A stretch of DNA of 64,000 bases from assembly GCA_002255585.1 (NCBI GenBank), contig NCBJ01000001.1:49987-113986 (forward strand), given 5' to 3'. A model generated the notes under the pieces. That model was not told where the DNA came from. It did no database searches and saw only the letters and a program-made list of their open reading frames with translations. The DNA comes from Parcubacteria group bacterium 21-54-25. Lineage in GTDB: Bacteria; Patescibacteriota; Minisyncoccia; Phycocordibacterales; Phycocordibacteraceae. This document shows, one piece after another, positions 363-48,388 of the stretch. The translations under genes and the position numbers were made by a program. Each line of letters starts with the position of its first letter. Position 1 is the first letter of the stretch.

Positions 363-380
363 ATAGGTAGGGTACGTAAA

Positions 381-710: not shown

Positions 711-715
711 ACTAC

Positions 716-2962: not shown

Positions 2963-3039
2963 ATTGTAGCACCGCTTTTGATACCTGTACGCATTTCTAC
3001 GCCCGCCTATCCGCGCGCCATCGCATCCAGAGGAATGCC

Positions 3040-3882
3040 TTGCACAAGACAGCTCAAGGACATACAATAGACAGTATCGAAGTCTCTAAGACACGTATGC
3101 TATCTAAAGGACAATCACACGACCATGCTGGAACGTCCTTGAAAATCACTATTAGCGATAATGGCGATTTCGTCTTAGAAAAAAGCATATTCTCGAATAT
3201 ATTTGATAGAGACATAAAACGTGTATTCATATATAAAAAAGCTGAACGCCTCGCAAAAGCAATTCACCTCATCACACCAGCCTTCCATAACGCCCCCTCG
3301 CTACGTGACCGCATAGACACAATTGCTATAGGGCTTGTAGATGCCGCCATACTTTCGCCTGCCGCCGCGCGCGATGCGCTCTCGCGTGAACTCCTCGCGC
3401 TTTCGAGCGTGCTCTCGATTGCACGCACGAGCAGCATGCTTTCCGCGATGAACTCAGAGCTCATTTCTCGGGAAGCGCATCTGCTTCTGCAGGAAGTTGC
3501 CGCATACGAAGAGCCGCGTCTTTTTCTTGATGATGTGCCGTCACTCTCCGAACTTTCAAAAGCGGCGCCAAGCGCCCAGATGCTGCGCACGTCATCAAAG
3601 ACATCTGGTGCGTCCGAGCAGCGTGTTTCGAAAGCTCCCGCTGCTGTTCATAAAGGACACACACATATAAAGGACAATGACGCAAAGAACTCTCGACGTG
3701 ACGCGATCGTTTCTATCATCCGCACCAAAGGCAGCGCATACATAAAAGATATATCCACTGTTATAAGGAACGTAAGCGAAAAAACCATTCAACGCGAGCT
3801 CGCGGCGCTTGTTTTAGAAGGCGTGCTCACCAAACAAGGAGAGCGTCGGTGGACCTCCTATACCATCACCTCCTCCATCTAA
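3040..3882 (+). CDS. Hypothetical protein with C-terminal winged-HTH-like domain
   Basis: 280-aa ORF divergent from ftsK. The C-terminal segment RRDAIVSIIRTKGSAYIKDISTVIRNVSEKTIQRELAALVLEGVLTKQGERRWTSY resembles a wHTH DNA-binding domain. The true start is uncertain. Confidence 0.4.
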   Translation: MHKTAQGHTIDSIEVSKTRMLSKGQSHDHAGTSLKITISDNGDFVLEKSIFSNIFDRDIKRVFIYKKAERLAKAIHLITPAFHNAPSLRDRIDTIAIGLVDAAILSPAAARDALSRELLALSSVLSIARTSSMLSAMNSELISREAHLLLQEVAAYEEPRLFLDDVPSLSELSKAAPSAQMLRTSSKTSGASEQRVSKAPAAVHKGHTHIKDNDAKNSRRDAIVSIIRTKGSAYIKDISTVIRNVSEKTIQRELAALVLEGVLTKQGERRWTSYTITSSI

Positions 3883-4520
3883 CCTTAACCCAACACAAAC
3901 AAATAGTACCTATATATAATATCAATCTATAACACAACACAAAAATCCATTTTGTCTTATTTGACCGCATGTTCCACCTTCTGTAATATAGCCACCGTGG
4001 TGACGTCTATAGGTATAGAGGAACACCGGGGCCGCTCGCGGCCATTTTGGCGTTCCCCTGCATAACCCGTTATCCACACAGTACGCCGCTTGTGCAACTT
4101 CGAAATAAACCAGTACTCCGCTATACTAAAGCACAGTCCTAAGCGGGGTATGGGGCGTTTCTTTCCGCAGGGGGCAAGGTCTTTGATAATTGAATAGAGC
4201 AACTTGACCAGTTGCAGGCGCGCAGGCGCGATGTACACCGTCGCGGGTTTCCCTGTTGCCACGCGCGCTTTCACTAACAGGATTCGGTACGGATGCACAC
4301 TCGACTATGACGGATGCACGAAACGCACGACACCTTTCTCTTGCCAGCTAGCCCATGGGAGGCAGGTCGATACCGCCCTCTGTGGGATAGTGATTGGAAA
4401 CAACACATGAAACCGATCGCTCACACGATCAAATTACCAGGTGAACCAACTGCACACTCGTCCGCCACCATTACTTATTCGGTGGACGAATGCGCAGTCT
4501 AGAAAACTTAACAATCAAAC

Positions 4521-7500
4521 ATGCAACATTCAGTAACCAACAATGCGTTTGCGAAAATCGCCGCAGTGGTTGCCGGTCTTGCCATGGCAGCTTCGATGGT
4601 GTTTGTCGCTGTGCCTACCGCACACGCGCAGACAACCTCGCAGCTCCAGGCTCAGATCGCATCACTCTTGGCGCAGATCCAATCGCTCCAAACACAGCTC
4701 AATACTGTGCAAGGCGGTTCAACAACAACCACCACCAGTTCTGCAGGCGGCGCTTGCACCTTCACGATGAGTCTCACGCTGAAGAGCAAGGGCGCAGATG
4801 TTACCTGCCTCCAGAACTACCTGACGAAGGGCGGTTACTTCACCTATTCAGGTGGCGCAACTGGCTACTTCGGCCCGATCACCCAAAAGGCGGTCGCCGC
4901 ATGGCAGGCAGCCAACGGTGTCGCTCCGGCAGTCGGCTACTTCGGTCCGATCTCTCGCGCTAAGTACGCAGAGCTGACGGCAGGACAGACGACCACCACG
5001 ACCACCACAGGCGGCACGACCACGACCACCACAGGCGGCACGACAGGCGGCACCACGCCGACCGGCAACGGCCTCCAGGTCTCGCTCGCGCCGACCTCGC
5101 CAAACGGCACCGTGCTTGTCGCAGGTCAGGGCATCGGTGATCTCGGAGAGTTCCTCTTCACGAACCCGACCTCGGCCCCGATCACGGTAACGAATCTTTC
5201 GTTCCAGCGCATCGGCGTCTCAAACGACTCGACACTAGTGAATGTGTACCTCTACAACGGAGCAACACGCATCACTGACTCGGCGGGCGTGAGCAACTCG
5301 ACGTTCTCGTATGCTAACGCAGGCGGTATCTTCACGGTTCCGGCAGGCGGCACCTACACGGTGGCTGTCCGCTCGGACATCGAGAAGAGTATCTCCGGTC
5401 AGCAAATTGGCGTCGCGCTCACTTCGGTTGGTTCGACAGGCACGCTTGACTCAAGCGTCTCGTTCCCAATCAACGGCGGCCTCCAGGCCATCTCGACTGC
5501 GAACATCGCGTCGGTTGACTTCAACACGAACACTATCCCGAGCGCCGCAACGAGCATTAGTCCGCAGAGCGACTACCCGGTCTGGCAGAACACGGTTTCC
5601 GTGTCCACCAACCCGGTGAAGCTCTCGTCAATGACCTTCACGAACCTCGGTTCGGCTGATGCGTCAGCGATCACGAACTTGCGTCTCTACGTTGACGGCA
5701 CGCAGGTCGGCTCAACGGTTCCGCAAATGAGCACGAACCGCACGGTGACCTTCGACCTCTCGGCCAGTCCGTACTTGCTCTCTGAGCAAAGCCATGTGAT
5801 TAAGGTCTTGGCCGACATCGGCGGCGCAGCTTCGAGCCGCACCGTTCAGTTCTCAGTGCAGCGCTCATCTGACGCAACGTTCATCGACAGCGAGCTTAAT
5901 CAGCCGGTTACCCCGACGATTAACACCCAGAACTTCTCGTCAGTTAGCACGGGCGTAATCAGCATTCAGTCAACCGGCTCTACGGGTGTCTCGGTAACGA
6001 AAGACCCGACCTCGGCAAGCAACAACATTCCGGTAGGCGCGACCAGCGTAAGCCTCGCGACCTTCGGTATGCTCGCCTCGGGTGAGCCGACGTATGTGCG
6101 CGATCTCTACGTCTGTTCGAACACCACGGCTTCGAGCACCGCGACTTATGGCGGTTTGAAGAACGGCAAGATCATGGTTAATGGTGTGCAGGTAGGATCG
6201 ACAAAAGACATTGTCGATTGTAGCAATGGGAGCACCGACTTCACGATCGGCTCCTCGCTCACCCTTCCGGCTAACCAGACCACGCTTGTCTCGGTCTACG
6301 CTGATGCAAAGAACACAAGCTCAGTGAACCTTCCTAACGCCTCTACCGTATCGGTTACCTTGGTAGCAGGCACCAGCAACGGACAGGGTCAGTACTCCCT
6401 CACGTCGGCAAACATTCCGTCAAGTAACATTACGGGCAACACGTTGACGGTGACCACGTCGTCGCTTACAGCGAACATGGCCACGGGATACGCTAACCAG
6501 GCCGTTACTCCGGGCACAAACAACTTCAAGATTGGTCAGTTTGTGCTTCAGGCCGGCTCGACAGAGGGTCTCAACGTTAACTCGATTGGCATCACTCTGA
6601 CAGGTAATGACGGCACACCGCTTCAGAACCTGAAGTTGGTGAACGACGCGACCGGTCAGCAGCTTGGCACGGTTGTTACTTCGCCAGGCGCTCCGAGCAA
6701 CTCGCCGTCGAACACGTTCTCGACGAATCTCACGATCCCGGTCTCTTCATCGGTGACGATTGACGTCTACGCAGATGTACCGTCGAACACGGCAAACGGC
6801 AAGACCATCACCCCACAGGTTGGCTACGCGGCGACAAACGCGACAGGCCTCACCACGGGCACGACCGCAACCATCGGATCGTCTAACGTACCACTGCAGA
6901 CCATCACGACGGGCAGCGGTTTGCTCACGGTCTCGCTTGGTGCGTCAAACCCGATTGCTACGAACATTGTCGCTGGCACGTCGGGTAACGAGATTGCTGA
7001 CTACACCTTCTCGGCGAACACCTCGTCGTACACGGTGAGCCAGCTTGAGTTCTCAATGCCAGCGGCATCGTCCACGGCAGTGAGCGGCATTGCAGTCTCG
7101 TACCCTGGCTCAAATGGCGTGACCTCGTACGTTCCGCTCGTGACCAACGGCGCGACCTCGACAGCCCGCCTCACCGGACTCAACTTCACGATTCCGGCGA
7201 ACAGCTCGGCTGACATTCAGGTCTTTGCCGCGACGCCGATCATTACCACGGGTTCCGCGACGATCTCCGGAACGAAGATCGCGCTCACGCTCGTTGGTAC
7301 GGACGGCACGAATGTGCAGGTCACGGACGGCGCAGGCAACCTGGTGTACTCGGTTAACGGCGGCGTAAACTTGAAGTCAAACACTTCAAGCTACGGCTTT
7401 GGTGTGCTGCGCGCATCTGCACCGACCTTTGCCGGCCAGAGCTACAGTTCGCAGAATCCACCGAACGGGGGCACCGTGCTCTACCAGTTCAGTGTCGCGG

Positions 7501-7943
7501 CTGACCCCAAGGGTGCAATTGACTTGAACAAGATCTCGTTCAACGTCAGCACGTCCTCGCTCACCGTAAAGAACTTCCAGCTCTACGACCAGTCGAACGC
7601 TTCTATTCCGTTGAACGCCGCTGGCGCAAATGCGAATGCAAGCGGGCTCGTCTCGATCGTGCCTGACCAGATTATCCAGGTTGGCGCAGGGAGCACGAAG
7701 ACCTTCATCTTGAAGGCGGCGTCCCCAACGAATATCGGGGTCACGACTGGCTCAAGAAGTCTCTCGGTAAACCTCGCTCCGGCAGACACGACGCTTGTAG
7801 CGAACACCGCAGCAGCGTCAGTCTCAGGCAACTATGTCTGGTCAGATCGCACAGCAAACAACGATTCGCCCACTGCAGCTCAGTGGACGAACGGCTTCTT
7901 GCTTCGCGACCTGGTGAGCGGCACCTACAGCTTCAACTGGTAA
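4521..7943 (+). CDS. Giant secreted/surface protein (1140 aa) with signal peptide, coiled-coil, peptidoglycan-binding-like domain and a Thr/Ser/Gly-rich region
   Basis: Signal peptide MQHSV...AMAASMVFVAVPTAHAQ. Coiled-coil QLQAQIASLLAQIQSLQTQLNTVQ. Peptidoglycan-binding-like segment LQNYLTKGGYFTYSGGATGYFGPITQKAVAAWQAANGV. Tandem Thr/Gly tracts, then a long Ser/Thr/Asn-rich beta-rich region. Confidence 0.7.
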   Translation: MQHSVTNNAFAKIAAVVAGLAMAASMVFVAVPTAHAQTTSQLQAQIASLLAQIQSLQTQLNTVQGGSTTTTTSSAGGACTFTMSLTLKSKGADVTCLQNYLTKGGYFTYSGGATGYFGPITQKAVAAWQAANGVAPAVGYFGPISRAKYAELTAGQTTTTTTTGGTTTTTTGGTTGGTTPTGNGLQVSLAPTSPNGTVLVAGQGIGDLGEFLFTNPTSAPITVTNLSFQRIGVSNDSTLVNVYLYNGATRITDSAGVSNSTFSYANAGGIFTVPAGGTYTVAVRSDIEKSISGQQIGVALTSVGSTGTLDSSVSFPINGGLQAISTANIASVDFNTNTIPSAATSISPQSDYPVWQNTVSVSTNPVKLSSMTFTNLGSADASAITNLRLYVDGTQVGSTVPQMSTNRTVTFDLSASPYLLSEQSHVIKVLADIGGAASSRTVQFSVQRSSDATFIDSELNQPVTPTINTQNFSSVSTGVISIQSTGSTGVSVTKDPTSASNNIPVGATSVSLATFGMLASGEPTYVRDLYVCSNTTASSTATYGGLKNGKIMVNGVQVGSTKDIVDCSNGSTDFTIGSSLTLPANQTTLVSVYADAKNTSSVNLPNASTVSVTLVAGTSNGQGQYSLTSANIPSSNITGNTLTVTTSSLTANMATGYANQAVTPGTNNFKIGQFVLQAGSTEGLNVNSIGITLTGNDGTPLQNLKLVNDATGQQLGTVVTSPGAPSNSPSNTFSTNLTIPVSSSVTIDVYADVPSNTANGKTITPQVGYAATNATGLTTGTTATIGSSNVPLQTITTGSGLLTVSLGASNPIATNIVAGTSGNEIADYTFSANTSSYTVSQLEFSMPAASSTAVSGIAVSYPGSNGVTSYVPLVTNGATSTARLTGLNFTIPANSSADIQVFAATPIITTGSATISGTKIALTLVGTDGTNVQVTDGAGNLVYSVNGGVNLKSNTSSYGFGVLRASAPTFAGQSYSSQNPPNGGTVLYQFSVAADPKGAIDLNKISFNVSTSSLTVKNFQLYDQSNASIPLNAAGANANASGLVSIVPDQIIQVGAGSTKTFILKAASPTNIGVTTGSRSLSVNLAPADTTLVANTAAASVSGNYVWSDRTANNDSPTAAQWTNGFLLRDLVSGTYSFNW

Positions 7944-7965
7944 TCTCTAACGAAGCTCTCCCTTT

Positions 7966-7986
7966 GAGTAAGGTTTAACCTTACTC
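7966..7986 (+). repeat. REP palindrome copy 1 (GAGTAAGGTTTAACCTTACTC, centre TTTAA)
   Basis: Perfect 21-nt inverted repeat. One of six near-identical copies in the window. Confidence 0.8.
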
Positions 7987-8020
7987 AAGGTGTCCAGCTA
8001 GGAAATTGGCCTAGCAAAAC

Positions 8021-8056
8021 AAAAAACCACCCTCTTTTGGGTGGTTTTTTGTTTTC
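8021..8056 (+). terminator. Rho-independent terminator downstream of the giant surface protein gene
   Basis: Stem AACCACCC / GGGTGGTT with loop TCTTTT, followed by a T-run and preceded by an A-tract. It is possibly bidirectional. Confidence 0.6.
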
Positions 8057-8063
8057 CAGCGTT

Positions 8064-8084
8064 GAGTAAGGTTAAACCTTACTC
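8064..8084 (-). repeat. REP palindrome copy 2 (centre TTAAA, inverse orientation)
   Basis: GAGTAAGGTTAAACCTTACTC. It is the reverse complement of copy 1 at the asymmetric centre. Confidence 0.8.
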
Positions 8085-8129
8085 AACGCTCAGTTTATGC
8101 ACCTCTTATCTTTGCCCTACGGACCAAGT

Positions 8130-8150
8130 GAGTAAGGTTTAACCTTACTC
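8130..8150 (+). repeat. REP palindrome copy 3 (centre TTTAA)
   Basis: GAGTAAGGTTTAACCTTACTC, 14 nt upstream of the RAYT start codon. Confidence 0.8.
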
Positions 8151-8163
8151 ACGGCATGCTAGA

Positions 8164-8883
8164 ATGTACGCAATGCGAGTAGAACCATACGGTGTTGGAT
8201 CCATTGTGCACATAACAAACAGGGGTGTGCGGGGGACAGATATCGTGCGCGATACGGCGGACAAAAGAAATTTTATGCGGTCACTTTTTTATTTGAATGA
8301 TACGTACACAAGCCGTAACTGGCGGCGTGAGATTGCTGATATCGGCATGTTTGAACGCCCGTCAGTATGGCCAGAGCGCGATCCTCTCGCCCGGATACTT
8401 GCCTGGACGCTTTTGGACAACCATTTCCATTTGCTCGCTCAAGAGATTCGAGAAGGGGGCGTAGCGAAGTTCATGCAACGTCTTTGCGGGAGCCTCGCGA
8501 TGAGTTTCAATCTGAAATATAGGGAAAAGGGGAGCATCTTCCAAAGTTCGTATCATGCGCGATCGGTTACCGAGGATAAACACCACCAGTATCTTGTGTT
8601 TTATGTTCTCGTTAAGAATGTTCTTGACCTGTACCCAGGCGGACTTACTGCAGCTGCGCTGAATTTTGATGACGCATGGGAATGGGCAAAACAGTACCCG
8701 TATTCAAGTTTTCGTGACAGTATCGCAGGCAAGGAATCGCCGGTTCTTGCCGACCCAGACATGCTTATTGCGAGTATTCTCGGTACCGGGGATGTTTACA
8801 AACAAGAAGCAAAGGATATGCTCGATTTCCACCTTGCCTCAAGAGGGGAAGCGTTCAAAGACATAATGCTTGAACCGTGGTGA
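8164..8883 (+). CDS. REP-associated tyrosine transposase (RAYT; IS200/IS605-family Y1 HUH transposase-like)
   Basis: HuH motif LLDNHFHLLAQ. The C-terminal block FQSSYHARSVTEDKHHQYLVFYVLVKNVL aligns to the RAYT/TnpA block [29 protein letters not shown] and carries a candidate catalytic Tyr. The N-terminus GSIVHITNRGVRGTDIVRDTADKRNFMRSLF matches the Y1 transposase N-terminal pattern. The ORF is flanked on both sides by the REP palindromes. Confidence 0.7.
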   Translation: MYAMRVEPYGVGSIVHITNRGVRGTDIVRDTADKRNFMRSLFYLNDTYTSRNWRREIADIGMFERPSVWPERDPLARILAWTLLDNHFHLLAQEIREGGVAKFMQRLCGSLAMSFNLKYREKGSIFQSSYHARSVTEDKHHQYLVFYVLVKNVLDLYPGGLTAAALNFDDAWEWAKQYPYSSFRDSIAGKESPVLADPDMLIASILGTGDVYKQEAKDMLDFHLASRGEAFKDIMLEPW

Positions 8884-8891
8884 TAAGCCGT

Positions 8892-8912
8892 GAGTAAGGT
8901 TAAACCTTACTC
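8892..8912 (-). repeat. REP palindrome copy 4 (centre TTAAA)
   Basis: GAGTAAGGTTAAACCTTACTC, 9 nt after the RAYT stop codon. Confidence 0.8.
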
Positions 8913-8955
8913 ACCGTCTTCATGGCTTCGCTCAGCACTTGGTCTGGAGTTTGTT

Positions 8956-8976
8956 GAGTGAGGTTTAACCTTACTC
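8956..8976 (+). repeat. REP palindrome copy 5 (one mismatch: GAGTGAGGTTTAACCTTACTC)
   Basis: Near-perfect copy with centre TTTAA. Confidence 0.7.
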
Positions 8977-9105
8977 ACGGCAGGGGCGTTGGCTATCCAC
9001 CGCGGTAAGAAAGAAGTGCCCCGCGCGTCTGGTATGCTTTGAGGGCAGGGCACCACGCCCGCACCCGCTATTGATTATTATTTACCCCAAAATTACACTT
9101 ACGTC

Positions 9106-10053
9106 ATGAACAGCAAGACATTTCTTAGCGTTGCCATTGGCTTTACTATGGCCGTGGCACCGTTTGCAGCGCCGCTCGCTTTTGCAGATGCTACCACCAC
9201 GGCGACGTCCACCGCCACCTCGACCGCCACCACCACTTCGTCTACCAGTGGTACCACTGCAACGAGCACCACTGCGACTTCGACTCAAACCACTACTGGC
9301 AGCACCGCAACTTCGACCAGCGTGACGACAACGTCAACCTCGCCAACCATCGCCTCACTTCAGGCAGAGCTCCAGAGCCTCCTCGTCGAGGTGCAGGCGC
9401 TCACTGCTAAGTTGGTCCAGGTGCGCCAGCAGGTAGCAAGCACGACGATTGCGATTCAACAACAGCTCCACGTGGGCTCCACCGGTCCAAACGTAACGCT
9501 GCTTCAGCAACTTCTTGCCGGTAATCCTTCCGTGTATCCGCAAGGTCTCGTTACCGGCTACTATGGTCCCTTGACCGAAGCGGCGGTAAAGCGCTTCCAA
9601 AAGGATCACGGCATAGAAAGCGTGGGAGACGTTGGTCCTCAGACACGCGCTGTATTAAACGCTTACTTGGCAAATGCAACGAGCACGTCTCCCCGAGCGC
9701 TGCTGCACGAGTTTGAAGCAGAGGGGTCAGCCAGCACCACAGCGAGTGGTAGCGGAGAGCCCATGGTAACGATGTGTCACCATGCAGGCCTTTCTGGAAA
9801 CAGCCAAACCATCGTTGTTGCCCAACCAGCAACGTTCGCCCACATAGAACACGGTGATAGCATTGGCGCCTGCAGTAGTGAAGGAGAGAACAGCCAAGGT
9901 AGCCAAAACAGCGATCATGGCAATGGGCAGGGTGGCGGCGAGTCAAACCACACGATGATTCCGTACACAGGCACCACGACCCAAAGCACGGCACCCTCAA
10001 CCGATAACAGCACACAACAAAGCTCAGACCACCAGTCAGGAAGCGATAACTAA
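9106..10053 (+). CDS. Secreted protein (315 aa) with signal peptide, Thr/Ser-rich linker, coiled-coil and PG_binding_1-like domain
   Basis: Signal peptide MNSKTFLSVAIGFTMAVAPFAAPLAFA. TSTAT repeats. Coiled-coil IASLQAELQSLLVEVQALTAKLVQVRQQV. Peptidoglycan-binding-like TGPNVTLLQQLLAGNPSVYPQGLVTGYYGPLTEAAVKRFQKDHG. It has the same module order as the N-terminus of the 4521-7943 protein. Confidence 0.65.
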   Translation: MNSKTFLSVAIGFTMAVAPFAAPLAFADATTTATSTATSTATTTSSTSGTTATSTTATSTQTTTGSTATSTSVTTTSTSPTIASLQAELQSLLVEVQALTAKLVQVRQQVASTTIAIQQQLHVGSTGPNVTLLQQLLAGNPSVYPQGLVTGYYGPLTEAAVKRFQKDHGIESVGDVGPQTRAVLNAYLANATSTSPRALLHEFEAEGSASTTASGSGEPMVTMCHHAGLSGNSQTIVVAQPATFAHIEHGDSIGACSSEGENSQGSQNSDHGNGQGGGESNHTMIPYTGTTTQSTAPSTDNSTQQSSDHQSGSDN

Positions 10054-10128
10054 CCCTCTCCGTTACGTCTGGGCATACTGCACACAGCGGCTTTTCGCCG
10101 CTGTGTGTGTTGTGGTATGCTCGTACCT

Positions 10129-10977
10129 ATGAGACCAAATAGAGACATTGTCATTGGTGCGGGTGCCATAGTGGTGTTTATTATCCTGCTCGTGTGGCTG
10201 CTCTCCGCGCGTGTTGCGTCGTATTCCCCGCCAAGTACCACCAGCGCGCTCGCCACCTCGACACTACCAATCGCCTCCACGACACCAGCAACAGCGACCA
10301 GCACCAGTGCTACTCGCGGCCTGGGCACGGTGACGGTTTTGCCCGTGGCAGGCACCGCGCATCTGGCAGCAAATCCAATACCGATAGATGCGCGTGACGC
10401 CATCACGTCGTGGGCGCTCCCTGGTACCGAAAGTACGACGACCAAAGCGAAACTCCAAGCGCGAATCAACACGCTGTTGGCAGACGTGGGCACGGGCCGC
10501 TATACGAACTTCAACATCTACGCGCAAATAGCGCAGAACTATGGGTTCATGGGAAACGGCTTGCAGGCGTATCGTTTTTACGTGCGCGCGGCACAAAGTG
10601 ACCCAACCGCAGGCCTGCCTTTCAGTAGCATTGGCGATCTCATGGTGCAGCTTGGTGCGTACCACACCGCCTATGCCGCGTATGGGAAATCAATCACCCT
10701 GCAACCGCGTGTCGAGCAATTTTGGCTCGCGTATCTGCGCTTCCTCGCGGCGCACGAGGCCACGGCGCCAGCAACCGCAAGCATTTTTGCCTCGGCAAAG
10801 ACCGCAACGAATAACGCGCCGAACGTGCTTATTGCCGAGGCAAACTGGCGCGCCAGCACGGGCAACATAACCGGTGCAATCACAGATTGGAAACTGGTGC
10901 GTTCGCAGGCGGGCACCGGGCAGCAGCAAGCAATCGATGTGGAAATAGCCAAGCTTGAGAAGCAGCAATCTTCCTAG
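10129..10977 (+). CDS. Membrane-anchored hypothetical protein (N-terminal TM helix, Thr/Ser-rich linker, helical repeat domain)
   Basis: ORF 10105-10977. The likely start is MRPNRDIVIGAGAIVVFIILLVWLL. No recognisable catalytic motif. Confidence 0.5.
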   Translation: MRPNRDIVIGAGAIVVFIILLVWLLSARVASYSPPSTTSALATSTLPIASTTPATATSTSATRGLGTVTVLPVAGTAHLAANPIPIDARDAITSWALPGTESTTTKAKLQARINTLLADVGTGRYTNFNIYAQIAQNYGFMGNGLQAYRFYVRAAQSDPTAGLPFSSIGDLMVQLGAYHTAYAAYGKSITLQPRVEQFWLAYLRFLAAHEATAPATASIFASAKTATNNAPNVLIAEANWRASTGNITGAITDWKLVRSQAGTGQQQAIDVEIAKLEKQQSS

Positions 10978-10980
10978 CGT

Positions 10981-11172
10981 ATGCAAGACAAACCAGAACC
11001 ATCGGCAGCGAAGATGCCGTACGTGCTTGAGTTTGCGAAATTTCTCGGCATATTTATTGTCATGATTGGTGCTGCGCTTTCTTTGCTGCATGTCATATGG
11101 GTGGCGACTCAGGGGAACCAAACCAATGCGTCCGCCGCAGTTGCACCCGCAGTGTCGAGAGGAGGGCACTAG
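10981..11172 (+). CDS. Small membrane protein (63 aa), hypothetical
   Basis: Single hydrophobic helix FLGIFIVMIGAALSLLHVIWVA. Followed by hairpin GGGCGACGCTCTGCGTCGCCC at 11199-11220. Confidence 0.35.
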   Translation: MQDKPEPSAAKMPYVLEFAKFLGIFIVMIGAALSLLHVIWVATQGNQTNASAAVAPAVSRGGH

Positions 11173-11239
11173 CACGCTACAGGTATCGCTGGGGATAACG
11201 GGCGACGCTCTGCGTCGCCCGCGGTACCATGTACCTATC

Positions 11240-12058
11240 GTGATTGATCAACAGCTCGTTGACTACGTCCGGCAGCAGCTCGCAAAGAACACGTCTCGCG
11301 AGGAGACCATAAGCGAGCTCATTGCCGCTGGCTGGGATAAAGAAGACGTAGAAGCGGCTTTTGCCGCGGTTGGTGCGACACCACCCGCACCCGCGCCCTC
11401 TCCCTACTCTGCCGCGCCGCCCTCGCAACCGCCGCAGGAGCCGCGGGCAAGTTCGCCGCACGCTCAACCCTCGCCCTCGACATTGCAAAAAGAGATTCCT
11501 TCAAAAAACGCGGAGGCCAGCACAAAGGATACCCACGTTTCAGATAAGAAAATCGTAGGAATCCTTGCTATAGCTTTTGTTGCAGCGATTTTGCTTGTTA
11601 TTGCGACATTTAAATCTTTCTCTTCTACCACTACCCCGGAAGGGGGGTTCGTTGCTGCCATGGTGATGCTGGGGCTCTTTTTGTCTATTGTGACAGGTGT
11701 TGTGGTTGTGACCATGGTCGTTGCGGTCGGAAATACGTACACATCGGTGAAAGCTCTCTCCAGCAAACGTGCCAGTAAATCGCGTGCGATAGGAAATATC
11801 CTGCTTGCGGGCGGAAGCATTGTTATTGGCGCGTGGGTTTCGTTGTTTGAACAAACGAACTCTATTGCAAAAACCCTGGACCTTCTCACCGTTGCTTTTT
11901 TGTATACCTTTGTGAAATCGGCCTGGTTTTTGATTGATTCGTCTCGTGCGAAACGCCCCGTGTCAGAAAGAATTCTTCCGTGGATTATGGTCGGAATTGG
12001 AGTCTCCGTCGTCGTTGTCTTTGTGTATAATTATTTGACCCCACCCATCCCTCTGTAA
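11240..12058 (+). CDS. Integral membrane protein with N-terminal cytoplasmic Pro-rich domain, hypothetical
   Basis: ORF 11066-12058. The upstream part overlaps the previous ORF, so a GTG start near 11240 is likely. At least four TM helices are present (ILAIAFVAAILLVIATF, VAAMVMLGLFLSIVTGVVVVTMVVAV ...). Confidence 0.45.
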   Translation: MIDQQLVDYVRQQLAKNTSREETISELIAAGWDKEDVEAAFAAVGATPPAPAPSPYSAAPPSQPPQEPRASSPHAQPSPSTLQKEIPSKNAEASTKDTHVSDKKIVGILAIAFVAAILLVIATFKSFSSTTTPEGGFVAAMVMLGLFLSIVTGVVVVTMVVAVGNTYTSVKALSSKRASKSRAIGNILLAGGSIVIGAWVSLFEQTNSIAKTLDLLTVAFLYTFVKSAWFLIDSSRAKRPVSERILPWIMVGIGVSVVVVFVYNYLTPPIPL

Positions 12059-12331
12059 TGTAGCCAACCATTCTAACGTTCCAATCTAAAATACGAACGA
12101 TAGGGAACTGCGCCTCATCTCGTAGCAGACTGCGCGCAGAAAACATACGTTCTTGATTTTAAAGAAGTCTTCCTGTATCGTATCAAACGTGCGGACCGAA
12201 GACAGCAGGCATCCATAAGCCCTGCCGAGGGACGAAATATCTGCGCACTGCGCGGATAGGTCGAAGTCTCCATGTGAAAACGGTCCCGAAAGGGGCTATT
12301 TTCATTTCAGTCTCGTACTCAAAACAACACA

Positions 12332-12829
12332 ATGGCTATCAGCAAAACAAAGAAGCAGGGCGTCGTCGCGACTATTGCGCGCGCAGTGGAAGATGCGGCG
12401 TCCGTCGTATTCGTGAGTTTCTCTGGGATTTCTGTTGCAGACACGACCACAATGCGTAAGGAGCTTCGCGACGAGGGCGTTGGTTACTACGTGGCCAAGA
12501 AGTCACTCATTCGTCACGTGCTCGATGCGCGCGGTTACACGGGCGAACTTCCCGAGCTCCCGGGTGAAATCGCTATCGTGTGGAGCGCAAGCGATGCGAC
12601 GCTTCCGGCCCGCTCAATGTACGAGCAGGGGAAGAAATACAAAGACACACTCACCATCGTTGGTGGCGTGTTCGAGAATGCTTACGTCGACGCGGCAAAG
12701 ATGCAATCGATTGCAACGATTCCACCGCTACCGGTCTTGCGTGGCATGTTCGTGAACGTAATCAATTCGCCAATCCAGGGTCTCGTGATCGCGCTTGACC
12801 ACATCCGCCAGTCAAAAGCTGCGGCGTAA
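12332..12829 (+). CDS. rplJ: 50S ribosomal protein L10
   Basis: MAISKTKKQGVVATIARAVEDAASVVFVSFSGISVADTTTMRKELRDEGVGYYVAKKSL is typical L10. It lies immediately upstream of L7/L12. Confidence 0.9.
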   Translation: MAISKTKKQGVVATIARAVEDAASVVFVSFSGISVADTTTMRKELRDEGVGYYVAKKSLIRHVLDARGYTGELPELPGEIAIVWSASDATLPARSMYEQGKKYKDTLTIVGGVFENAYVDAAKMQSIATIPPLPVLRGMFVNVINSPIQGLVIALDHIRQSKAAA

Positions 12830-12852
12830 ATTAACTCATTAAAAAAAGTACT

Positions 12853-13317
12853 ATGTCTGACGAAGTAAAAAAGGAGGAGGAGAAGGCAACTGAGGCCGCA
12901 GCCGCTCCGGAAGTATCTGCTGCTGCCGAGGAGGCAGAAGTTGAGGTGCCGGAGCAGTTCAAAAAGCTCGTAGAAACAATCGAGACCATGACGGTTCTCG
13001 AACTCTCGGAGCTTGTGAAGGTATTTGAGAAGAAGTTTGGTGTGTCGGCGTCTGCGGTTGCGGTCGCCGCACCGGGCGCCACGGCTGCTGCAGGCGAAGA
13101 GGAAAAGAGTATGGTTACGGTAGAACTTTCCGAAGTCGGCGCCAACAAAATTGCGGTCATCAAGGCCGTGAAAGAGGTGCTTGTCTTGGGGCTTAAAGAA
13201 GCAAAAGACCTCGTGGACGGCGTACCGTCCGTGCTCAAGGAGAACGTTAAGAAAGAAGACGCCGAGGTGCTCAAGAGTAAAATTGAAGCAGCAGGCGGCA
13301 AGGTTACGTTTAAATAA
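12853..13317 (+). CDS. rplL: 50S ribosomal protein L7/L12
   Basis: C-terminal domain [56 protein letters not shown] is canonical L7/L12. The N-terminus has an acidic/Ala-rich extension. Confidence 0.9.
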
Positions 13318-13342
13318 CCTCTTGCAAGCACGATGCAAACTG

Positions 13343-13368
13343 AAAAAGCCGGCCGAGCCGGCTTTTTC
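13343..13368 (+). terminator. Rho-independent terminator after rplL
   Basis: AAAAAGCCGGCCGAGCCGGCTTTTT: GC stem, 4-nt loop and T-run. Confidence 0.75.
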
Positions 13369-13383
13369 AGTTTGTCGAGCGAT

Positions 13384-13404
13384 GAGTAAGGTTAAACCTT
13401 ACTC
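13384..13404 (-). repeat. REP palindrome copy 6 (centre TTAAA), downstream of the rplL terminator
   Basis: GAGTAAGGTTAAACCTTACTC. It sits within a 27-nt extended palindrome GATGAGTAAGGTTAAACCTTACTCATC. Confidence 0.8.
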
Positions 13405-13443
13405 ATCGTCTTATCGTGGGAACGGGCAGTATTTTGTCAAGTC

Positions 13444-24517: not shown

Positions 24518-24563
<46 letters not shown>

Positions 24564-47071: not shown

Positions 47072-48388
47072 ATGACGTTGCAGGGTATAAAAAAAGCTCA
47101 TTTCGTTGGGGTCGGTGGCATTGGCATGAGCGCATTGGCGCAGCTTTTTGCGCACGAAGGCATTGTCGTGTCTGGCTCAGACCAGACCGCTTCACCAACT
47201 ACTGATTTACTTGCCAAAAAAGGGGTTGCAGTATCGTTTATACAGTCCGCGGAGAACGTACCAGAGGATATTGACGTGCTTGTGTACAGCGACGCGGTGG
47301 CTGATGGTTCCGAAGGGTTCCCACAGCGCATACGAGCGAGAGAGCGTGGCGTGCCGGAGTTTTCGTTATTCCAAATGCTTGGCATGGTTTCTGCGGGGAA
47401 GCGCACGATCGCAATTGCTGGCACGCACGGCAAGACGACTACGACGGGCATGCTTGCGAAGATTCTTGTCGATGCAGGGGTAGACCCTACTGTGGTAGTG
47501 GGGAGTATCGTGAAAGATTTCGAGAGCAACTATGTTGCAGGAAGTTCGGACTGGTTCGTGGTCGAGGCGTGTGAGTATCACGACCACCTGCTTGAGCTCT
47601 CGCCCGAGGTGCTTGTCATCAATAACTTGGAATGGGATCACACGGATTACTTTCCGTCTCTCGAAGCACTGCAGGAGACCTTTCGCAGGGCGATTGCAAA
47701 AGTGCCGGCGCACGGTGCCATCGTAACTGACCCGCATAACCCAACCATTGCAGCGCTTCTCTCGTCAGCGGTGGCACACGTCATCGACTATATGGAAGCG
47801 GGAAGGTCTAACCTTCCCACGGGTGCATATGAGCTTACGCTGCCTGGGGAGTTTAACCAAAACAATGCACGCGCCGCAGCCGCGGCCGCCCGCCGCGTTT
47901 CGGCAGATAGCACCGCAGAATCCATCGCTACCGCACTGGCGGATTTCCACGGCACCTGGCGTCGGTTTGAATACAAAGGCACAACCGAGAATGGCGCGGA
48001 TGTGTACGACGACTATGCGCATCATCCGACTGCCGTGCGCGAAACCATTCACGCGCTTCGCGCAAAAACAGCAGGGAAGATGTTCATTGCATTCCATCCG
48101 CATCTTTACAGTCGCACGCGCGATCTACTCGAAGATTTCGCTACGGCGTTTGCCGGTGCTAATGACGTCATCATCGCACCTATTTACGCGGCGCGAGAAC
48201 ATGATGACGGCACCATTTCCAATCGCATACTTGCCGAGCGCATCGCTGCGACTGGCGTGCACGCACACACACTCGAAACATTTGACGACATCACCGCATA
48301 CCTGAACGTGCATGCAAAGAAAGGCGACACCGTGATGACTATGGGCGCGGGCGATATTTACAAAGTGGCAAATCAGCTCGTAGCCTGA
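47072..48388 (+). CDS. murC: UDP-N-acetylmuramate--L-alanine ligase
   Basis: HFVGVGGIGMSALAQLF is the MurC N-terminal signature. IAIAGTHGKTTTTGM is the Mur ligase P-loop. Confidence 0.85.
   Translation: MTLQGIKKAHFVGVGGIGMSALAQLFAHEGIVVSGSDQTASPTTDLLAKKGVAVSFIQSAENVPEDIDVLVYSDAVADGSEGFPQRIRARERGVPEFSLFQMLGMVSAGKRTIAIAGTHGKTTTTGMLAKILVDAGVDPTVVVGSIVKDFESNYVAGSSDWFVVEACEYHDHLLELSPEVLVINNLEWDHTDYFPSLEALQETFRRAIAKVPAHGAIVTDPHNPTIAALLSSAVAHVIDYMEAGRSNLPTGAYELTLPGEFNQNNARAAAAAARRVSADSTAESIATALADFHGTWRRFEYKGTTENGADVYDDYAHHPTAVRETIHALRAKTAGKMFIAFHPHLYSRTRDLLEDFATAFAGANDVIIAPIYAAREHDDGTISNRILAERIAATGVHAHTLETFDDITAYLNVHAKKGDTVMTMGAGDIYKVANQLVA

What the first reader, a model, noticed from the sequence alone, without database searches (positions are those of the whole stretch)
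7960..8980. REP-associated tyrosine transposase (RAYT) flanked by alternating-orientation REP palindromes
ORF 8164-8883 carries the HuH motif (NHFHLL). Its C-terminal block QSSYHARSVTEDKHHQYLVFYVLVKNVL aligns to the RAYT/IS200 Y1 transposase catalytic-Tyr region. The ORF is bracketed by five copies of the 21-nt perfect palindrome GAGTAAGGTT(T/A)AACCTTACTC: three upstream at 7966, 8064 and 8130, and two downstream at 8892 and 8956. The asymmetric centre (TTTAA versus TTAAA) alternates, giving a +,-,+ | -,+ pattern. That resembles the REP doublets/BIMEs described in Proteobacteria. A sixth copy sits at 13384-13404 after the rplL terminator. REP/RAYT systems are well documented in gamma-proteobacteria. 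If the CPR-like placement is right, one in such a reduced genome is unusual. The protein is about 60 aa longer than typical RAYTs.
Basis: partly seen in the sequence, partly recalled or inferred. Interest (0 to 1): 0.8.

Follow-up and report, generated by a model that had tools for sequence, protein, structure and literature searches.

The report
RAYT-like nuclease gene with cognate palindromes
A small-genome Patescibacteria (CPR) bacterium carries a housekeeping-like HUH/tyrosine DNA-nuclease gene (one copy in the 82.6 kb examined) bracketed by copies of its own short perfect DNA palindrome; this REP/RAYT-type gene-plus-repeat module recurred in nearly every relative's locus examined (the protein family has hundreds of members), and I found no description of it for this phylum in the literature I searched.

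Summary
Six copies of GAGTAAGGTTWAACCTTACTC (0 expected by chance) lie in the window. Five bracket ORF 8173-8883, including a 28-nt perfect inverted repeat. The ORF is a Y1/HUH enzyme: Pfam Y1_Tnp passes its cutoff, the best fold match is E. coli RAYT (4er8), and H84, H86, Y144 and N149 are invariant across 45 relatives that are 21-51% identical to it. It is not a canonical RAYT. It fails the NCBIfam equivalog cutoff (28 vs 80 bits), and its motifs (NHFH, FQ, SS, about 236 aa) resemble the published TnpA-Y1 subclass 2.1 (Bertels Group 1, "TIRYT"). The gene is syntenic across Paceibacteria and as conserved as FtsK or L12, so it is domesticated and not an active IS. In 16 of the other 17 loci examined, homologs are flanked by related odd-centred palindromes (AAGG-nn-W-nn-CCTT). 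A divergent homolog has a different inner stem. Copy number is low here: one dispersed copy and one degenerate in-frame copy (murC) in 82.6 kb. In relatives most copies are dispersed, many in frame inside housekeeping genes. "Alternating orientation" rests on one loop base and is not a conserved feature. Verdict: a REPtron-like module of a new variant type; the enzymatic link is inferred.

The parts
7964..7988 (.). Palindrome copy 1 (25-nt perfect, centre T), 21 nt after the stop of the upstream 1140-aa PG-binding gene
   Evidence: ssDNA hairpin dG -10, z -5.3
8058..8090 (.). Palindrome copy 2 (33-nt perfect, centre A), with copy-specific outer arms AGCGT/ACGCT. By eye it follows a hairpin plus T-run at about 8027-8055.
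   Evidence: dG -16.5, z -9.8. The terminator scan did not call the preceding hairpin.
8128..8155 (.). Palindrome copy 3 (25-nt perfect, centre T, plus GGC). It is the left arm of the 28-nt perfect inverted repeat that brackets the gene. It ends 7 nt before a -10-like TAGAAT and so covers the expected -35 region.
   Evidence: (I5). A copy lies about 45 nt before the ATG also in L003, L004, L006 and L007.
8160..8165 (+). -10-like hexamer TAGAAT, 7 nt upstream of ATG 8173, with no Shine-Dalgarno sequence (putative leaderless promoter; inferred)
   Evidence: Sequence and analogous hexamers in homolog loci. NOT called by the consensus promoter scan.
8173..8883 (+). Y1/HUH tyrosine nuclease gene, 236 aa (alternative ATG at 8164). 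HUH is H84/H86 (8422-8430), the candidate catalytic Tyr is Y144 (8602-8604), and N149 is at 8617-8619.
8887..8914 (.). Palindrome copy 4 (GCC plus 25-nt perfect, centre A). It is the right arm of the 28-nt inverted repeat; the palindrome proper begins 7 nt after the stop codon.
   Evidence: (I5)
8955..8981 (.). Palindrome copy 5 (imperfect: A->G at 8960; centre T; followed by CGGC like copy 3)
   Evidence: I11; dG -6.2, z -3.2
13380..13408 (.). Dispersed copy 6 (29-nt perfect, centre A, outer arms CGA/TCG), immediately after the rplL hairpin 13336-13374
47800..47818 (+). Degenerate in-frame copy GGGAAGGTCTAACCTTCCC inside the Mur ligase gene (47072-48388). It encodes G-R-S-N-L-P and differs by 1 mismatch from the exact palindrome found at the orthologous codons in L102, L192 and L135.

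Best explanation
This is a REPtron-like module. It consists of a vertically inherited Y1 (HUH plus tyrosine) single-strand DNA nuclease/transposase of the RAYT branch (one copy in the 82.6 kb examined) and its cognate short, perfect, odd-centred palindromes.

Shown:
- The protein has the Y1 fold, with the HUH histidines and one Tyr/Asn pair invariant.
- The gene sits at a conserved chromosomal position and evolves like a core gene.
- Related palindromes (frame AAGG-nn-W-nn-CCTT) flank the gene in nearly every homolog locus examined, whatever the neighbouring genes.
- The inner stem differs in a divergent homolog.
- The palindromes fold as stable ssDNA hairpins.
- In relatives most copies are dispersed, both between genes and in frame within genes.

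Inferred:
- When DNA is single-stranded (replication, repair or uptake), the enzyme recognises the apical AAGG/CCTT stem-loop and nicks and rejoins next to it through a 5'-phosphotyrosyl (Y144) intermediate with HUH-bound metal. This occasionally copies or moves the hairpin to new sites, which keeps a small population of copies.
- The copy that covers the -35 region (or the 5' UTR in one subfamily) lets the protein, or the hairpin itself, throttle the gene's own expression.
- The centre base is a free loop nucleotide.
- The long copy-specific outer arms arise secondarily by hairpin-templated (quasipalindrome template-switch) mutation.
For: Protein:
- Pfam Y1_Tnp scores 26.1 bits against a cutoff of 23. 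All 45 diverse members match it.
- 42 of 45 members match the NCBIfam RAYT model, against 2 that match IS200 TnpA.
- The AF2 model has pLDDT 79. Its best PDB match is 4er8_A, RAYT bound to a REP hairpin (prob 1.0, E 4e-4), followed by IS608, ISDra2 and IS200 TnpA.
- Only G18, H84, H86, Y144 and N149 are invariant among 45 members that are 21-51% identical to the window protein.

Domestication:
- The order FtsK, orf280 (no Pfam hit), large PG-binding protein, Y1..., L10, L12, MS channel is shared by the window, L001, L005, L006 and L008.
- Y1 identity of 61-67% compares with FtsK 66-68%, L12 64-72% and L10 58-59% in the same genome pairs.
- There is no second copy in 82.6 kb.

Coupling of gene and palindrome:
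- Flanking palindromes occur in L001, L003-L008, L016, L089, L103, L124, L130, L162 and L168. L003, L007, L016 and L103 have unrelated neighbours.
- L089's divergent protein has AAAGGCG-W-CGCCTTT doublets on both sides.

Dispersal:
- The window holds 7 copies against 0.18 expected.
- The CAYZNF01 MAG has 9 copies on 3 contigs.
- Of 120 metagenome stretches with GGGAAGGTCWGACCTTCCC, only 7 have a Y1 gene within about 130 nt.
- Copies lie in frame in DUF192, TGT, MetRS, ScpA, Mur ligase, UDG, LepA, MiaA and others.

Other:
- Hairpin stability is shown.
- The low copy number matches published Group 1 RAYTs, at about 12 flanking 16-mers per replicon (PMC5581495).
Against: - No biochemical or population evidence here shows that the protein binds, cuts or moves these palindromes.
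- The window genome has only one dispersed exact copy in 82.6 kb.
- The palindromes are fully symmetric and lack the asymmetric guide or foot (GT[AG]G) that RAYT and IS200 enzymes use to choose strand and cleavage site (PMC6006769).
- In DUF192 the palindrome replaces native codons without any length change, which is not what a simple insertion gives.
- The 32%-identical L016 protein shares the window's core, so protein-repeat covariation is not strict.
- The promoter-overlap idea is not supported by the consensus scan.
- Published subclass 2.1 enzymes were reported as not REP-associated.
Confidence: 0.65

Rival explanations
1. Exapted site-specific DNA-processing or DNA-binding factor. The Y1 protein has a host function, such as processing ssDNA at defined hairpins during replication, repair or DNA uptake, or acting as a regulator. 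The palindromes would then be selected or molecularly driven recognition sites that arise and are kept in place. They would not be mobile repeats copied by transposition.
For: - Housekeeping-level conservation and synteny in reduced genomes.
- The exact 19-mer recurs at orthologous codons of DUF192, ScpA, TGT, MetRS, Mur ligase and LepA in diverged species.
- In DUF192 there is no length change relative to a palindrome-free ortholog.
- The window's murC keeps 18 of 19 bases although its own gene-flanking family differs.
- A preferred reading frame (GRSDLP) resembles the frame bias of uptake sequences.
Against: - The orthologous-site sample was selected by exact match. The one unbiased site is not significant (5/5 identical codons against 16/33 in the flanks for L102; Fisher p = 0.14 against L135).
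- L007's DUF192 has no trace of the palindrome.
- UDG shows a 22-aa indel carrying an extra copy, which is real insertion or duplication.
- Copies are also scattered in unrelated intergenic sites.
- Retention of the catalytic residues does not distinguish this rival from the main explanation.
Confidence: 0.2
2. The palindromes are generic CPR hairpins, such as terminators, RNA-stability elements or operators of an unrelated factor. They happen to be common in intergenic DNA, and the Y1 gene has no enzymatic relation to them.
For: Several copies sit just after stop codons or next to terminator-like hairpins (7964, 8058 and 13380). A second, unrelated palindrome family exists in the same window. 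Some high-GC metagenome hits are ordinary terminators (L087, L150, L177).
Against: - Palindromes cluster at the gene far beyond chance. In L007, for example, 4 of the 6 odd palindromes with stems of at least 9 in 20.7 kb lie within 100 nt of the gene.
- The clustering follows the gene into different neighbourhoods.
- The inner stem changes with a divergent protein (L089).
- There is no T-run after the palindromes, and the terminator scan found none.
- In-frame intragenic copies cannot be terminators.
Confidence: 0.07
3. It is an ordinary IS200-like insertion sequence (tnpA plus subterminal hairpins), active or recently dead.
For: The hairpin-gene-hairpin layout with a 28-nt inverted repeat resembles IS200. 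Databases label it 'transposase'.
Against: - The chromosomal position is conserved across genomes that share only about 60-67% protein identity.
- Conservation equals that of FtsK and L12.
- There are no additional or near-identical copies.
- The protein is 236 aa, not about 150, and has no Y-x-x-x-Q motif.
- There is no tnpB.
- Only 2 of 45 members match the IS200 model, and weakly.
Confidence: 0.03
4. Local tandem duplication or chance palindromes with no wider meaning.
For: Five of the six exact or near-exact copies lie within 1 kb.
Against: None is expected by chance. There is a copy 4.5 kb away, and copies occur in other genomes. The spacers between neighbouring copies show no reported similarity. 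The same architecture is found in 16 other loci.
Confidence: 0.01

Closest known systems
REP/RAYT (TnpA-REP) systems, e.g. E. coli RayT with REP/BIME (REPtron; Nunvar 2010, Ton-Hoang 2012, Messing 2012, Bertels & Rainey 2011)
   Same: - A vertically inherited Y1/HUH gene, flanked on both sides by its own hairpin-forming repeats in inverted relation (one gene copy in the 82.6 kb examined).
- Repeats also found elsewhere in the genome.
- Housekeeping-like conservation.
- Best structural match is 4er8, and the RAYT HMM is the best NCBIfam hit.
   Different: - Fails the RAYT equivalog cutoff (28 vs 80 bits).
- The Y motif is Y-x4-N-V, not Y-x3-N-P.
- 236 aa against 150-165 aa.
- The repeats are perfect, symmetric, odd-centred palindromes without a GT[AG]G foot or bulges.
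- No REPIN or BIME structure with a conserved spacer.
- About 1 dispersed copy per 80 kb here, against roughly 1 per 5-10 kb in E. coli or Pseudomonas (the comparison figure is from my own knowledge).
TnpA-Y1 subclass 2.1 (Quentin et al. 2018) = RAYT Group 1 (Bertels et al. 2017) = TIRYT/TIRtron (Di Nocera et al. 2013)
   Same: - Length (median 238 aa), NH[YF]H HuH motif, FQ in place of WQ, and the SS proximal-tail motif.
- Distant members of this family carry the subclass motif Y-I-H-L-N-P.
- Flanking repeats are of only moderate abundance, about 12 per replicon.
- Some TIRs are described as self-complementary and clustered.
   Different: - Subclass 2.1 is reported as lacking REP-like hairpins. 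Its typical TIRs carry GGGGWSAS, which is absent here.
- The C-terminal HTH (Bac_DnaA_C, HTH_23, HTH_28) is not detected by Pfam.
- The window clade has a 1-residue insertion in the Y motif.
- The published sets contain no Patescibacteria (0 mentions).
- Subclass 2.1 and Group 1 are thought to be partly horizontally spread, whereas this clade is syntenic.
- I did not run a phylogeny against the reference sets.
IS200/IS605 TnpA insertion sequences
   Same: The Y1/HUH fold, a hairpin at each end of the gene, and a hairpin placed where it can affect the gene's own expression.
   Different: Not multi-copy, not mobile on the timescale observed, no Y-x3-Q motif, about 85 aa longer, no tnpB, and the ends are identical symmetric palindromes. 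IS200 ends are distinct left and right ends with guide sequences.
Intragenic REPs and Rickettsia palindromic elements (RPE) inserted in frame in protein genes (Ogata et al. 2000, from memory; Di Nocera 2013)
   Same: In relatives, and in degenerate form in the window's murC, the palindrome lies in frame inside functional housekeeping genes and encodes a short peptide of 6-8 residues, in at least some cases in variable or linker regions.
   Different: These copies are much shorter (19-21 nt, about 7 codons) than RPEs (about 100-150 bp, from memory). They recur at orthologous codons across diverged species. In DUF192 the palindrome replaces native codons without adding length.
DNA uptake sequences (DUS/USS) of Neisseriaceae and Pasteurellaceae (from memory)
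   Same: Short motifs found both between and within genes, at orthologous positions, with reading-frame bias. They can arise in situ by drive and not by transposition.
   Different: DUS and USS are non-palindromic 10-12-mers at about 1 per kb, and they are not coupled to a flanked HUH gene. There is no evidence here for an uptake bias.

Membership tests
Y1 (HUH) transposase/nuclease superfamily (Pfam PF01797) | Score at or above the Pfam gathering threshold | tested here: met
   26.1 bits vs 23. All 45 diverse relatives match, best E 3.7e-12.
Y1 (HUH) transposase/nuclease superfamily (Pfam PF01797) | HUH metal-binding motif conserved | tested here: met
   N83-H84-F85-H86. H84 and H86 are invariant in alignments A1, A2 and A3.
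Y1 (HUH) transposase/nuclease superfamily (Pfam PF01797) | Single catalytic Tyr on the C-terminal helix | tested here: met
   Y144 is the only invariant Tyr among 45 members. hhalign places the Y140-Y144-N149 helix on the RayT Y115-N119 helix (weak statistics). Catalysis itself was not tested.
Y1 (HUH) transposase/nuclease superfamily (Pfam PF01797) | Y1 fold | tested here: met
   AF2 model with pLDDT 79. Foldseek top hits are 4er8, 2a6m, 2xo6 and 2f4f.
REP-associated tyrosine transposase (NCBIfam NF047646 equivalog) | Score at or above the curated cutoff (80 bits) | tested here: not met
   28.1 bits. It is nevertheless the best-matching NCBIfam family for 42 of 45 relatives.
RAYT / TnpA-Y1 class 2 (Quentin 2018) | Y-motif signature Y-x-x-x-N-P | tested here: not met
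   The window protein has Y144-V-L-V-K-N149-V, with one extra residue and no Pro. Distant family members do have Y-I-H-(L/T)-N-P (definition).
RAYT / REPtron | Gene flanked on both sides by copies of a hairpin repeat in inverted relation | tested here: met
   A 28-nt perfect inverted repeat at 8128-8155 and 8887-8914, plus three more copies. Recurs in 16 other homolog loci.
RAYT / REPtron | REP has a 5' GT[AG]G foot at the base of an imperfect hairpin | tested here: not met
   The palindromes are perfect and symmetric. There is no GTAG or GTGG foot, and flanks oriented by the centre base show no asymmetry (definition).
RAYT / REPtron | Flanking repeat is abundant and dispersed in extragenic space of the same genome | tested here: inconclusive
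   Only 82.6 kb of this genome could be examined. It holds 1 dispersed exact copy and 1 degenerate intragenic copy. In relatives, 9 copies lie on 3 contigs of one MAG, and about 15 dispersed stretches occur per gene-adjacent stretch. No whole-genome count was possible.
RAYT / REPtron | Single-copy, vertically inherited gene | tested here: met
   Synteny across 5 genomes and conservation equal to FtsK and L12. There is one copy in 82.6 kb. Whole-genome copy number was not testable.
RAYT / REPtron | Each RAYT lineage has its own REP family (co-variation) | tested here: inconclusive
   L089's divergent protein has AAAGGCGWCGCCTTT, and the outer stems differ among clades. However, the 32%-identical L016 protein shares the window's core, and L001 carries three variants.
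TnpA-Y1 subclass 2.1 / Group 1 / TIRYT | About 238 aa; NH[YF]H; FQ or W[EQ]; SS proximal-tail motif | tested here: met
   236 aa, NHFH, F123-Q124 and S178-S179, all conserved, compared with Table 1 of PMC6006769.
TnpA-Y1 subclass 2.1 / Group 1 / TIRYT | C-terminal HTH-like domain (Bac_DnaA_C, HTH_23 or HTH_28) | tested here: not met
   No Pfam hit other than Y1_Tnp, even at E <= 10. The isolated C-terminal model has low confidence (pLDDT 67).
TnpA-Y1 subclass 2.1 / Group 1 / TIRYT | Phylogenetic placement within the reference subclass | not tested
   The reference sequences of Quentin 2018 and Bertels 2017 were not available in the tools. Assignment rests on motif resemblance only.
IS200/IS605 insertion sequence | Multiple near-identical copies; Y-x3-Q motif; about 150 aa; often tnpB | tested here: not met
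   The neighbours are PG-binding genes.
BIME (alternating-orientation REP arrays) | Regularly spaced REPs in alternating orientation defined by asymmetric REP sequence | tested here: not met
   Orientation is definable only by the centre base. The T,A,T|A,T pattern is specific to this window: other loci show T,T,T|A,A; T,T,T|T,A; A,A,T; A,T|T,A. There is no flank asymmetry.

The most novel reading that the evidence does not exclude
The Y1 nuclease and its AAGG-nn-W-nn-CCTT palindromes form a Patescibacteria-wide, host-beneficial DNA-processing system and are not a selfish repeat family. On this reading the palindromes are created and kept in place, including in frame at fixed codons of essential genes such as DUF192, ScpA, TGT, MetRS, Mur ligase and LepA, by DNA-level selection or enzyme- or hairpin-templated conversion. 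They would serve as recognition points on single-stranded DNA, for example during replication restart, repair, or the DNA uptake on which these auxotrophic cells are thought to depend.
Probability: 0.2. Interest if true: 0.8.

Novelty: new variant of a known kind. Interest (0 to 1): 0.6.

Why it matters
Why bacteria keep single-copy RAYT-type nucleases, and what those nucleases do to their palindromes, is still an open question. This study finds a clade that:
- spans many lineages of the ultra-small-genome Patescibacteria (Paceibacterota, Kaiserbacteria, Giovannonibacteria, Minisyncoccia and others);
- sits at a fixed chromosomal position and is as conserved as FtsK or ribosomal protein L12;
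- is paired with the simplest possible substrate, a perfect symmetric hairpin of about 21 nt;
- has low enough copy numbers that every copy can be tracked.

Retention in genomes of about 0.6-1 Mb argues against pure selfishness. That makes the clade a clean system for testing the 'domesticated transposase' hypothesis.

The published RAYT surveys I read contain no Patescibacteria, and subclass 2.1 (Group 1) is described as not hairpin-associated. This clade shows that a 2.1-like enzyme can have a cognate palindrome family.

The in-frame copies at orthologous codons of housekeeping genes are also relevant to annotating CPR proteins (recurrent GRSDLP, GKVRPS and EGQTFP peptides) and to assembly breaks in MAGs: the L002 contig ends inside the upstream palindrome.

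Tried and rejected
1. PDB sequence searches with the protein and with the family profile found no RAYT or TnpA. Only the fold comparison did.
2. hhalign to E. coli RayT gave a motif-consistent but statistically weak alignment (E 0.018, 2.6% probability). I used it only as a guide.
3. The afdb50 fold library was unavailable. The C-terminal 87 aa modelled alone gave pLDDT 67 and pTM 0.52, too poor to search, so the nature of the extension remains unresolved.
4. The consensus promoter/terminator scan called neither a promoter for the gene nor any terminator in 7900-9150. The promoter-overlap and leaderless idea rests only on -10-like hexamers at conserved spacing.
5. The GTDB scan with the window's 17-mer did not contain the window's own genome. 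Most of its 76 hits are lone matches in unrelated phyla, consistent with chance.
7. Extending the census through a second assembly of the same organism added 18.6 kb and no copies.
8. The centre-base 'flip' rate differs in 20-25% of pairs at 80-97% flank identity and in 0 of 16 pairs at 97% identity or above. This is compatible with an ordinary synonymous site under my ascertainment, so I claim no elevated inversion rate. It never flips in TGT, where T would create TGA.
9. The orientation test (flanks oriented by the centre base) was negative.
10. The REPIN/BIME reading fails: the spacers of the two doublets (8091-8127 and 8915-8954) show no reported similarity.
11. The test for DNA-level constraint at the window's murC site was not significant against L135 (4/5 vs 26/59 identical codons, Fisher p = 0.14) and only suggestive against L102 (5/5 vs 16/33).
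12. The cumulative GC-skew minimum near 8-12 kb is weak and confounded by a C-rich repeat ORF. I make no origin or terminus claim.
13. My crude ORF-based count of 'inside gene' copies over-calls. The L203 upstream copy reads through into the Y1 ORF, and the FBP-aldolase case may lie upstream of the true start. Only Pfam-verified hosts are cited.
14. The window-type copies in other CPR genomes are mostly intergenic. Only L065 lies deep inside a long frame, and that host gene is unverified.


Full report
**1. The observation**

The 21-mer GAGTAAGGTTWAACCTTACTC occurs at 7966, 8064, 8130, 8892, 8956 (one mismatch) and 13384. No shuffle of the window gives a single match, even with three mismatches allowed.

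The true palindromes are longer than 21 nt: 25, 33, 25, 25 and 29 nt for the perfect copies. The two copies nearest the ORF form a 28-nt, 100% inverted repeat (8128-8155 and 8887-8914, I5). Each copy folds as a stable ssDNA hairpin, with dG from -6.2 to -16.5 kcal/mol and z from -3.2 to -9.8.

The ORF 8164-8883 is real. Its many homologs begin at MRVEP, so the gene is most likely 8173-8883, 236 aa.

The window comes from a Candidatus Paceibacterota MAG: GCA_035427565.1, contig DAOMBW010000001.1, 123.8 kb.

**2. The protein**

- Pfam Y1_Tnp passes its gathering threshold (26.1 vs 23 bits).
- The NCBIfam RAYT equivalog is the only NCBIfam hit but is far below its cutoff (28.1 vs 80 bits).
- Neither phmmer nor a family profile finds any solved Y1 enzyme by sequence.
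- An AlphaFold model (pLDDT 79.4, pTM 0.78) has as its best PDB match 4er8, the E. coli RAYT bound to a REP hairpin (prob 1.0, E 4.4e-4). IS608, ISDra2 and IS200 TnpA follow.
- An exhaustive search of 1.84 billion cluster representatives finds 3590 relatives at E <= 1e-3 and 660 at E <= 1e-10. Those with names, down to 27-35% identity, are all Patescibacteria.
- In an alignment of 45 members that are 21-51% identical to the window protein, only G18, H84, H86, Y144 and N149 are invariant.
- All 45 members match Pfam Y1_Tnp. 42 match the RAYT model, and only 2 weakly match the IS200 TnpA model.

Compared with Table 1 of Quentin et al. 2018 (PMC6006769), the family has the signature of subclass 2.1 (Bertels Group 1; the TIRYT of Di Nocera 2013): about 238 aa, NH[YF]H, FQ, and an SS tail motif. 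The distant members carry that subclass's Y-I-H-L-N-P motif. The window's clade has a one-residue insertion in it (Y-V-L-V-K-N-V).

An hhalign to E. coli RayT is statistically weak (E 0.018) but lines up NHFH with EHMH, FQ with WQ, the Tyr helix, and YPYSSF with WPFSTF. It shows that the extra length is spread over internal insertions plus a distal tail of about 45 aa. Pfam sees no HTH in that tail. Modelled alone it has low confidence, whereas in the full model it scores 80-97. That suggests it packs on the core.

**3. It is a domesticated gene and not an insertion sequence**

- In the window, L001, L005, L006 and L008 the gene lies in the same order: FtsK, orf280 (no Pfam hit), a large PG-binding protein, Y1..., L10, L12, then the MS channel. 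RecA lies next to FtsK in the relatives and just outside the window in the second assembly. L004 shares part of the order.
- Between these genomes the Y1 protein is 61-67% identical. That is the same as FtsK (66-68%) and L12 (64-72%), and more than L10 (58-59%).
- No second copy exists in the 82.6 kb available for this organism.
- There is no tnpB. The neighbours are PG-binding genes.

**4. The gene and the palindromes are a unit**

Nearly every homolog locus examined has odd-centred perfect palindromes around the gene. L002 is cut inside its upstream copy, and L106 shows none.

| Locus | Palindrome |
|---|---|
| L001 | GTGGAAGTTWAACTTCCAC |
| L003 | GGGAAGGTCWGACCTTCCC (also TGTGAAGGTC..., TGGACAAGTC...) |
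| L004, L007 | TGTGAAGGTCWGACCTTCACA |
| L005 | GGAAAGTCWGACTTTCC |
| L006 | GTTCAAGTCWGACTTGAAC |
| L008 | TGGAAGGTCWGACCTTCCA |
| L103, L124, L130, L162, L168 | TGGGAAGGTCWGACCTTCCCA |
| L016 (protein 32% identical) | AGTAAGGTTWAACCTTACT, with the downstream copy overlapping the stop codon |
| L089 (divergent) | doublets of AAAGGCGWCGCCTTT on both sides |

All fit AAGG-nn-W-nn-CCTT, apart from one-base shortenings. The apical stem is the conserved part, and the lower stem and the two inner pairs vary.

The association holds where the neighbours are unrelated (L003, L007, L016, L103). That rules out a neighbourhood effect. It is far beyond chance: in L007, 4 of the 6 odd palindromes with stems of at least 9 in 20.7 kb lie within 100 nt of the gene.

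One copy ends 9-18 nt upstream of a -10-like hexamer, which itself lies 6-7 nt before the ATG, with no Shine-Dalgarno sequence (window TAGAAT, L003 TATAAT, L006 TATTAT, L007 TATTCT, L001 TATATT). In the L103 subfamily the copy is 3 nt before the ATG. This suggests control of the gene's own expression. The consensus scan does not call a promoter, so this is inference.

**5. Dispersal**

In this genome dispersal is minimal: one exact copy after rplL, one degenerate in-frame copy in murC, and none in a further 18.6 kb.

In relatives it is clear:
- The window's 17-mer is multi-copy only in Patescibacteria MAGs among 185,579 reference genomes. One MAG (CAYZNF01) has 9 copies on three contigs: 3 at its Y1 gene and 6 in gaps between the long ORFs elsewhere.
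Only 7 of these have a Y1 gene within about 130 nt. That gives roughly 15 dispersed stretches per gene locus.

This is the same order as the roughly 12 flanking 16-mers per replicon reported for Group 1 RAYTs. Groups 2 and 3 have 57-140 (PMC5581495).

**6. An unexpected property in relatives: in-frame copies**

The 128 copies cluster into 79 distinct sites. Many lie inside real genes verified by Pfam:

| Host gene | Peptide or position |
|---|---|
| DUF192 | GLS-GRSDLP-G |
| TGT | two tandem copies, GKVRPS |
| MetRS | LDKSDLSN-LGRSDLP |
| ScpA, Mur ligase | GRSDLP |
| UDG | WEGQTFPK, twice |
| LepA | two species |
| MiaA | inside the IPPT domain |
| a reverse transcriptase | inside RVT_1 |
| a T4SS coupling-protein homolog | C-terminal region |
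| two-module glycosyltransferase ORFs | between the two modules |

The 21-nt conserved unit equals seven codons. The frame in which the variable centre is the synonymous third base of Ser (TCW) is preferred, at about 27 of the 45 deep-inside sites. In TGT, where a T centre would create TGA, the centre is always A on the coding strand.

The same sites recur in species whose host proteins are only 58-64% identical.

The window's own murC has GGGAAGGTCTAACCTTCCC at the orthologous codons. As evidence of DNA-level constraint this is only suggestive.

In DUF192 the palindrome occupies the native GLSGRxxxP motif without any length change relative to L007's palindrome-free ortholog. In UDG a 22-aa indel carries an extra copy. 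So both in-place formation and insertion or duplication seem to occur.

In-frame REPs have precedents: the intragenic GTAG and CGTC REPs and the Rickettsia RPEs (PMC3733652).

**7.

The only asymmetry is the centre base. Its pattern differs from locus to locus. When 69 distinct sites are oriented by it, the left and right flanks are indistinguishable. So the BIME analogy fails.

There is one weak trend. The promoter- or ATG-proximal copy has T on the gene strand in 9 of 10 loci, though these are not independent. This would place CTGAC or TTAAC where a -35 element is expected.

Copy-specific, perfectly complementary outer arms occur in a minority of copies: the window's 33-nt and 29-nt copies, L001's 41-nt copy, and L004's 37-nt copy. 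In ScpA the palindrome is 29 nt in L179 and 19 nt in L119 at the same codons, with no indel. Flank pairs 3-8 are complementary in 29-38% of sites, against about 25% by chance. The simplest account, from established knowledge of quasipalindrome template-switch mutagenesis, is that a stable hairpin templates correction of its own flanks. This is inference.

**8. Most likely mechanism**

Shown: a catalytically intact Y1/HUH enzyme, hairpin-forming palindromes that travel with its gene and vary with it, domestication, and dispersal including in-frame sites.

Inferred, by analogy with IS608 TnpA and E. coli RayT: the enzyme recognises the apical stem-loop on single-stranded DNA, and nicks and rejoins through Y144 with HUH-bound metal. 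It thereby occasionally seeds or moves copies, and it binds the promoter or 5'-UTR copy to limit its own synthesis.

What does not fit neatly: the perfect symmetry leaves no obvious guide or foot to set strand and cleavage site, DUF192 shows in-place formation, and L016 shares the window's core despite 32% protein identity.

**9. Literature and novelty**

Full-text searches combining RAYT, REPIN, REP, IS200 or tyrosine transposase with Patescibacteria, Parcubacteria or candidate phyla radiation found nothing relevant. The two broad surveys I queried do not mention the phylum.

The kind is known: a Y1/RAYT-like domesticated nuclease with flanking repeats, and in-frame palindromic repeats. The variant is new in these respects:
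- a subclass-2.1-like enzyme with a cognate perfect-palindrome family;
- a modified Tyr motif;
- wide distribution across Patescibacteria lineages, with synteny in the window's clade;
- very low copy number;
- recurrent in-frame sites.

**10. Verdict**

The finding is real. I rate the finding of moderate-to-high interest (0.6).

Noticed in passing
window 26999-27023, 27176-27206, 59688-59712; L007 17676-17702: A second, unrelated perfect-palindrome family, ATTTAGGACACG-S-CGTGTCCTAAAT, with centre C or G. One copy lies inside the group I intron hit within the 23S gene. One lies 29 nt 3' of that hit, still within the 23S span. One lies 42 nt from tRNA-Arg. A similar AAGTTAGGACATCCGATGTCCTAACTT overlaps the lepA stop codon in L007. 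No associated gene was identified.
   Followed up: partly
window 23972-28219, 26910-27147, 28340-28447, 41399-42857: The 23S rRNA hit spans 4248 nt for a 2925-nt model, so it carries about 1.3 kb of insertions, including a group I intron. The 23S-5S pair is separated by about 13 kb from, and lies upstream of, 16S-tRNA-Ile. The rRNA genes are therefore unlinked.
   Followed up: no
window 28323-28350, 28435-28463, 28608-28636: An exact 29-nt direct repeat covers the 3' end of the 5S gene and recurs 173 nt downstream. An inverted partner overlaps the 5' end of 5S. This may be a partial 5S duplication or a processing stem.
   Followed up: no
window 47800-47818 (Mur ligase gene 47072-48388): An in-frame GGGAAGGTCTAACCTTCCC encodes G-R-S-N-L-P. 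It is one mismatch from the palindrome found at the orthologous codons of relatives' Mur ligase genes. Its inner stem is a hybrid of the GTC-W-GAC and GTT-W-AAC variants.
   Followed up: yes
L085-L204 (metagenome loci), e.g. L097 3284, L092 2021, L110 1313, L179 4750, L088 9134/9176, L117 3198, L163 2843: The 19-21-nt palindromes are embedded in frame in housekeeping genes of CPR bacteria (DUF192, TGT, MetRS, ScpA, Mur ligase, UDG, LepA, MiaA). They give recurrent GRSDLP, GKVRPS or EG(Q/L)TFP peptides at orthologous positions in diverged species.
   Followed up: partly
L002 1-65 vs L001 9936-10000: The 7.4-kb NCBI contig L002 ends exactly inside the upstream palindrome of the same gene that is intact in the 993-kb contig L001. 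Many homologs sit on contigs of about 1 kb. The palindromes may break short-read assemblies.
   Followed up: no
L207, L208 (GCA_027311325.1 DAICZD010000001.1): The same organism is deposited as a second assembly with a longer contig (167.6 kb), 100% identical to the window over 22.8 kb of overlap.
   Followed up: yes
window 1-14000: The cumulative GC-skew minimum falls at about 8-12 kb, near the Y1 locus. The signal is weak, noisy across the window, and confounded by the C-rich Thr/Ser-repeat ORF 4521-7943.
   Followed up: partly
window 41368-41399 / 43003-43034: A 32-nt inverted repeat (91% complementary) brackets the 16S rRNA and tRNA-Ile genes. It looks like an ordinary rRNA processing stem.
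   Followed up: no
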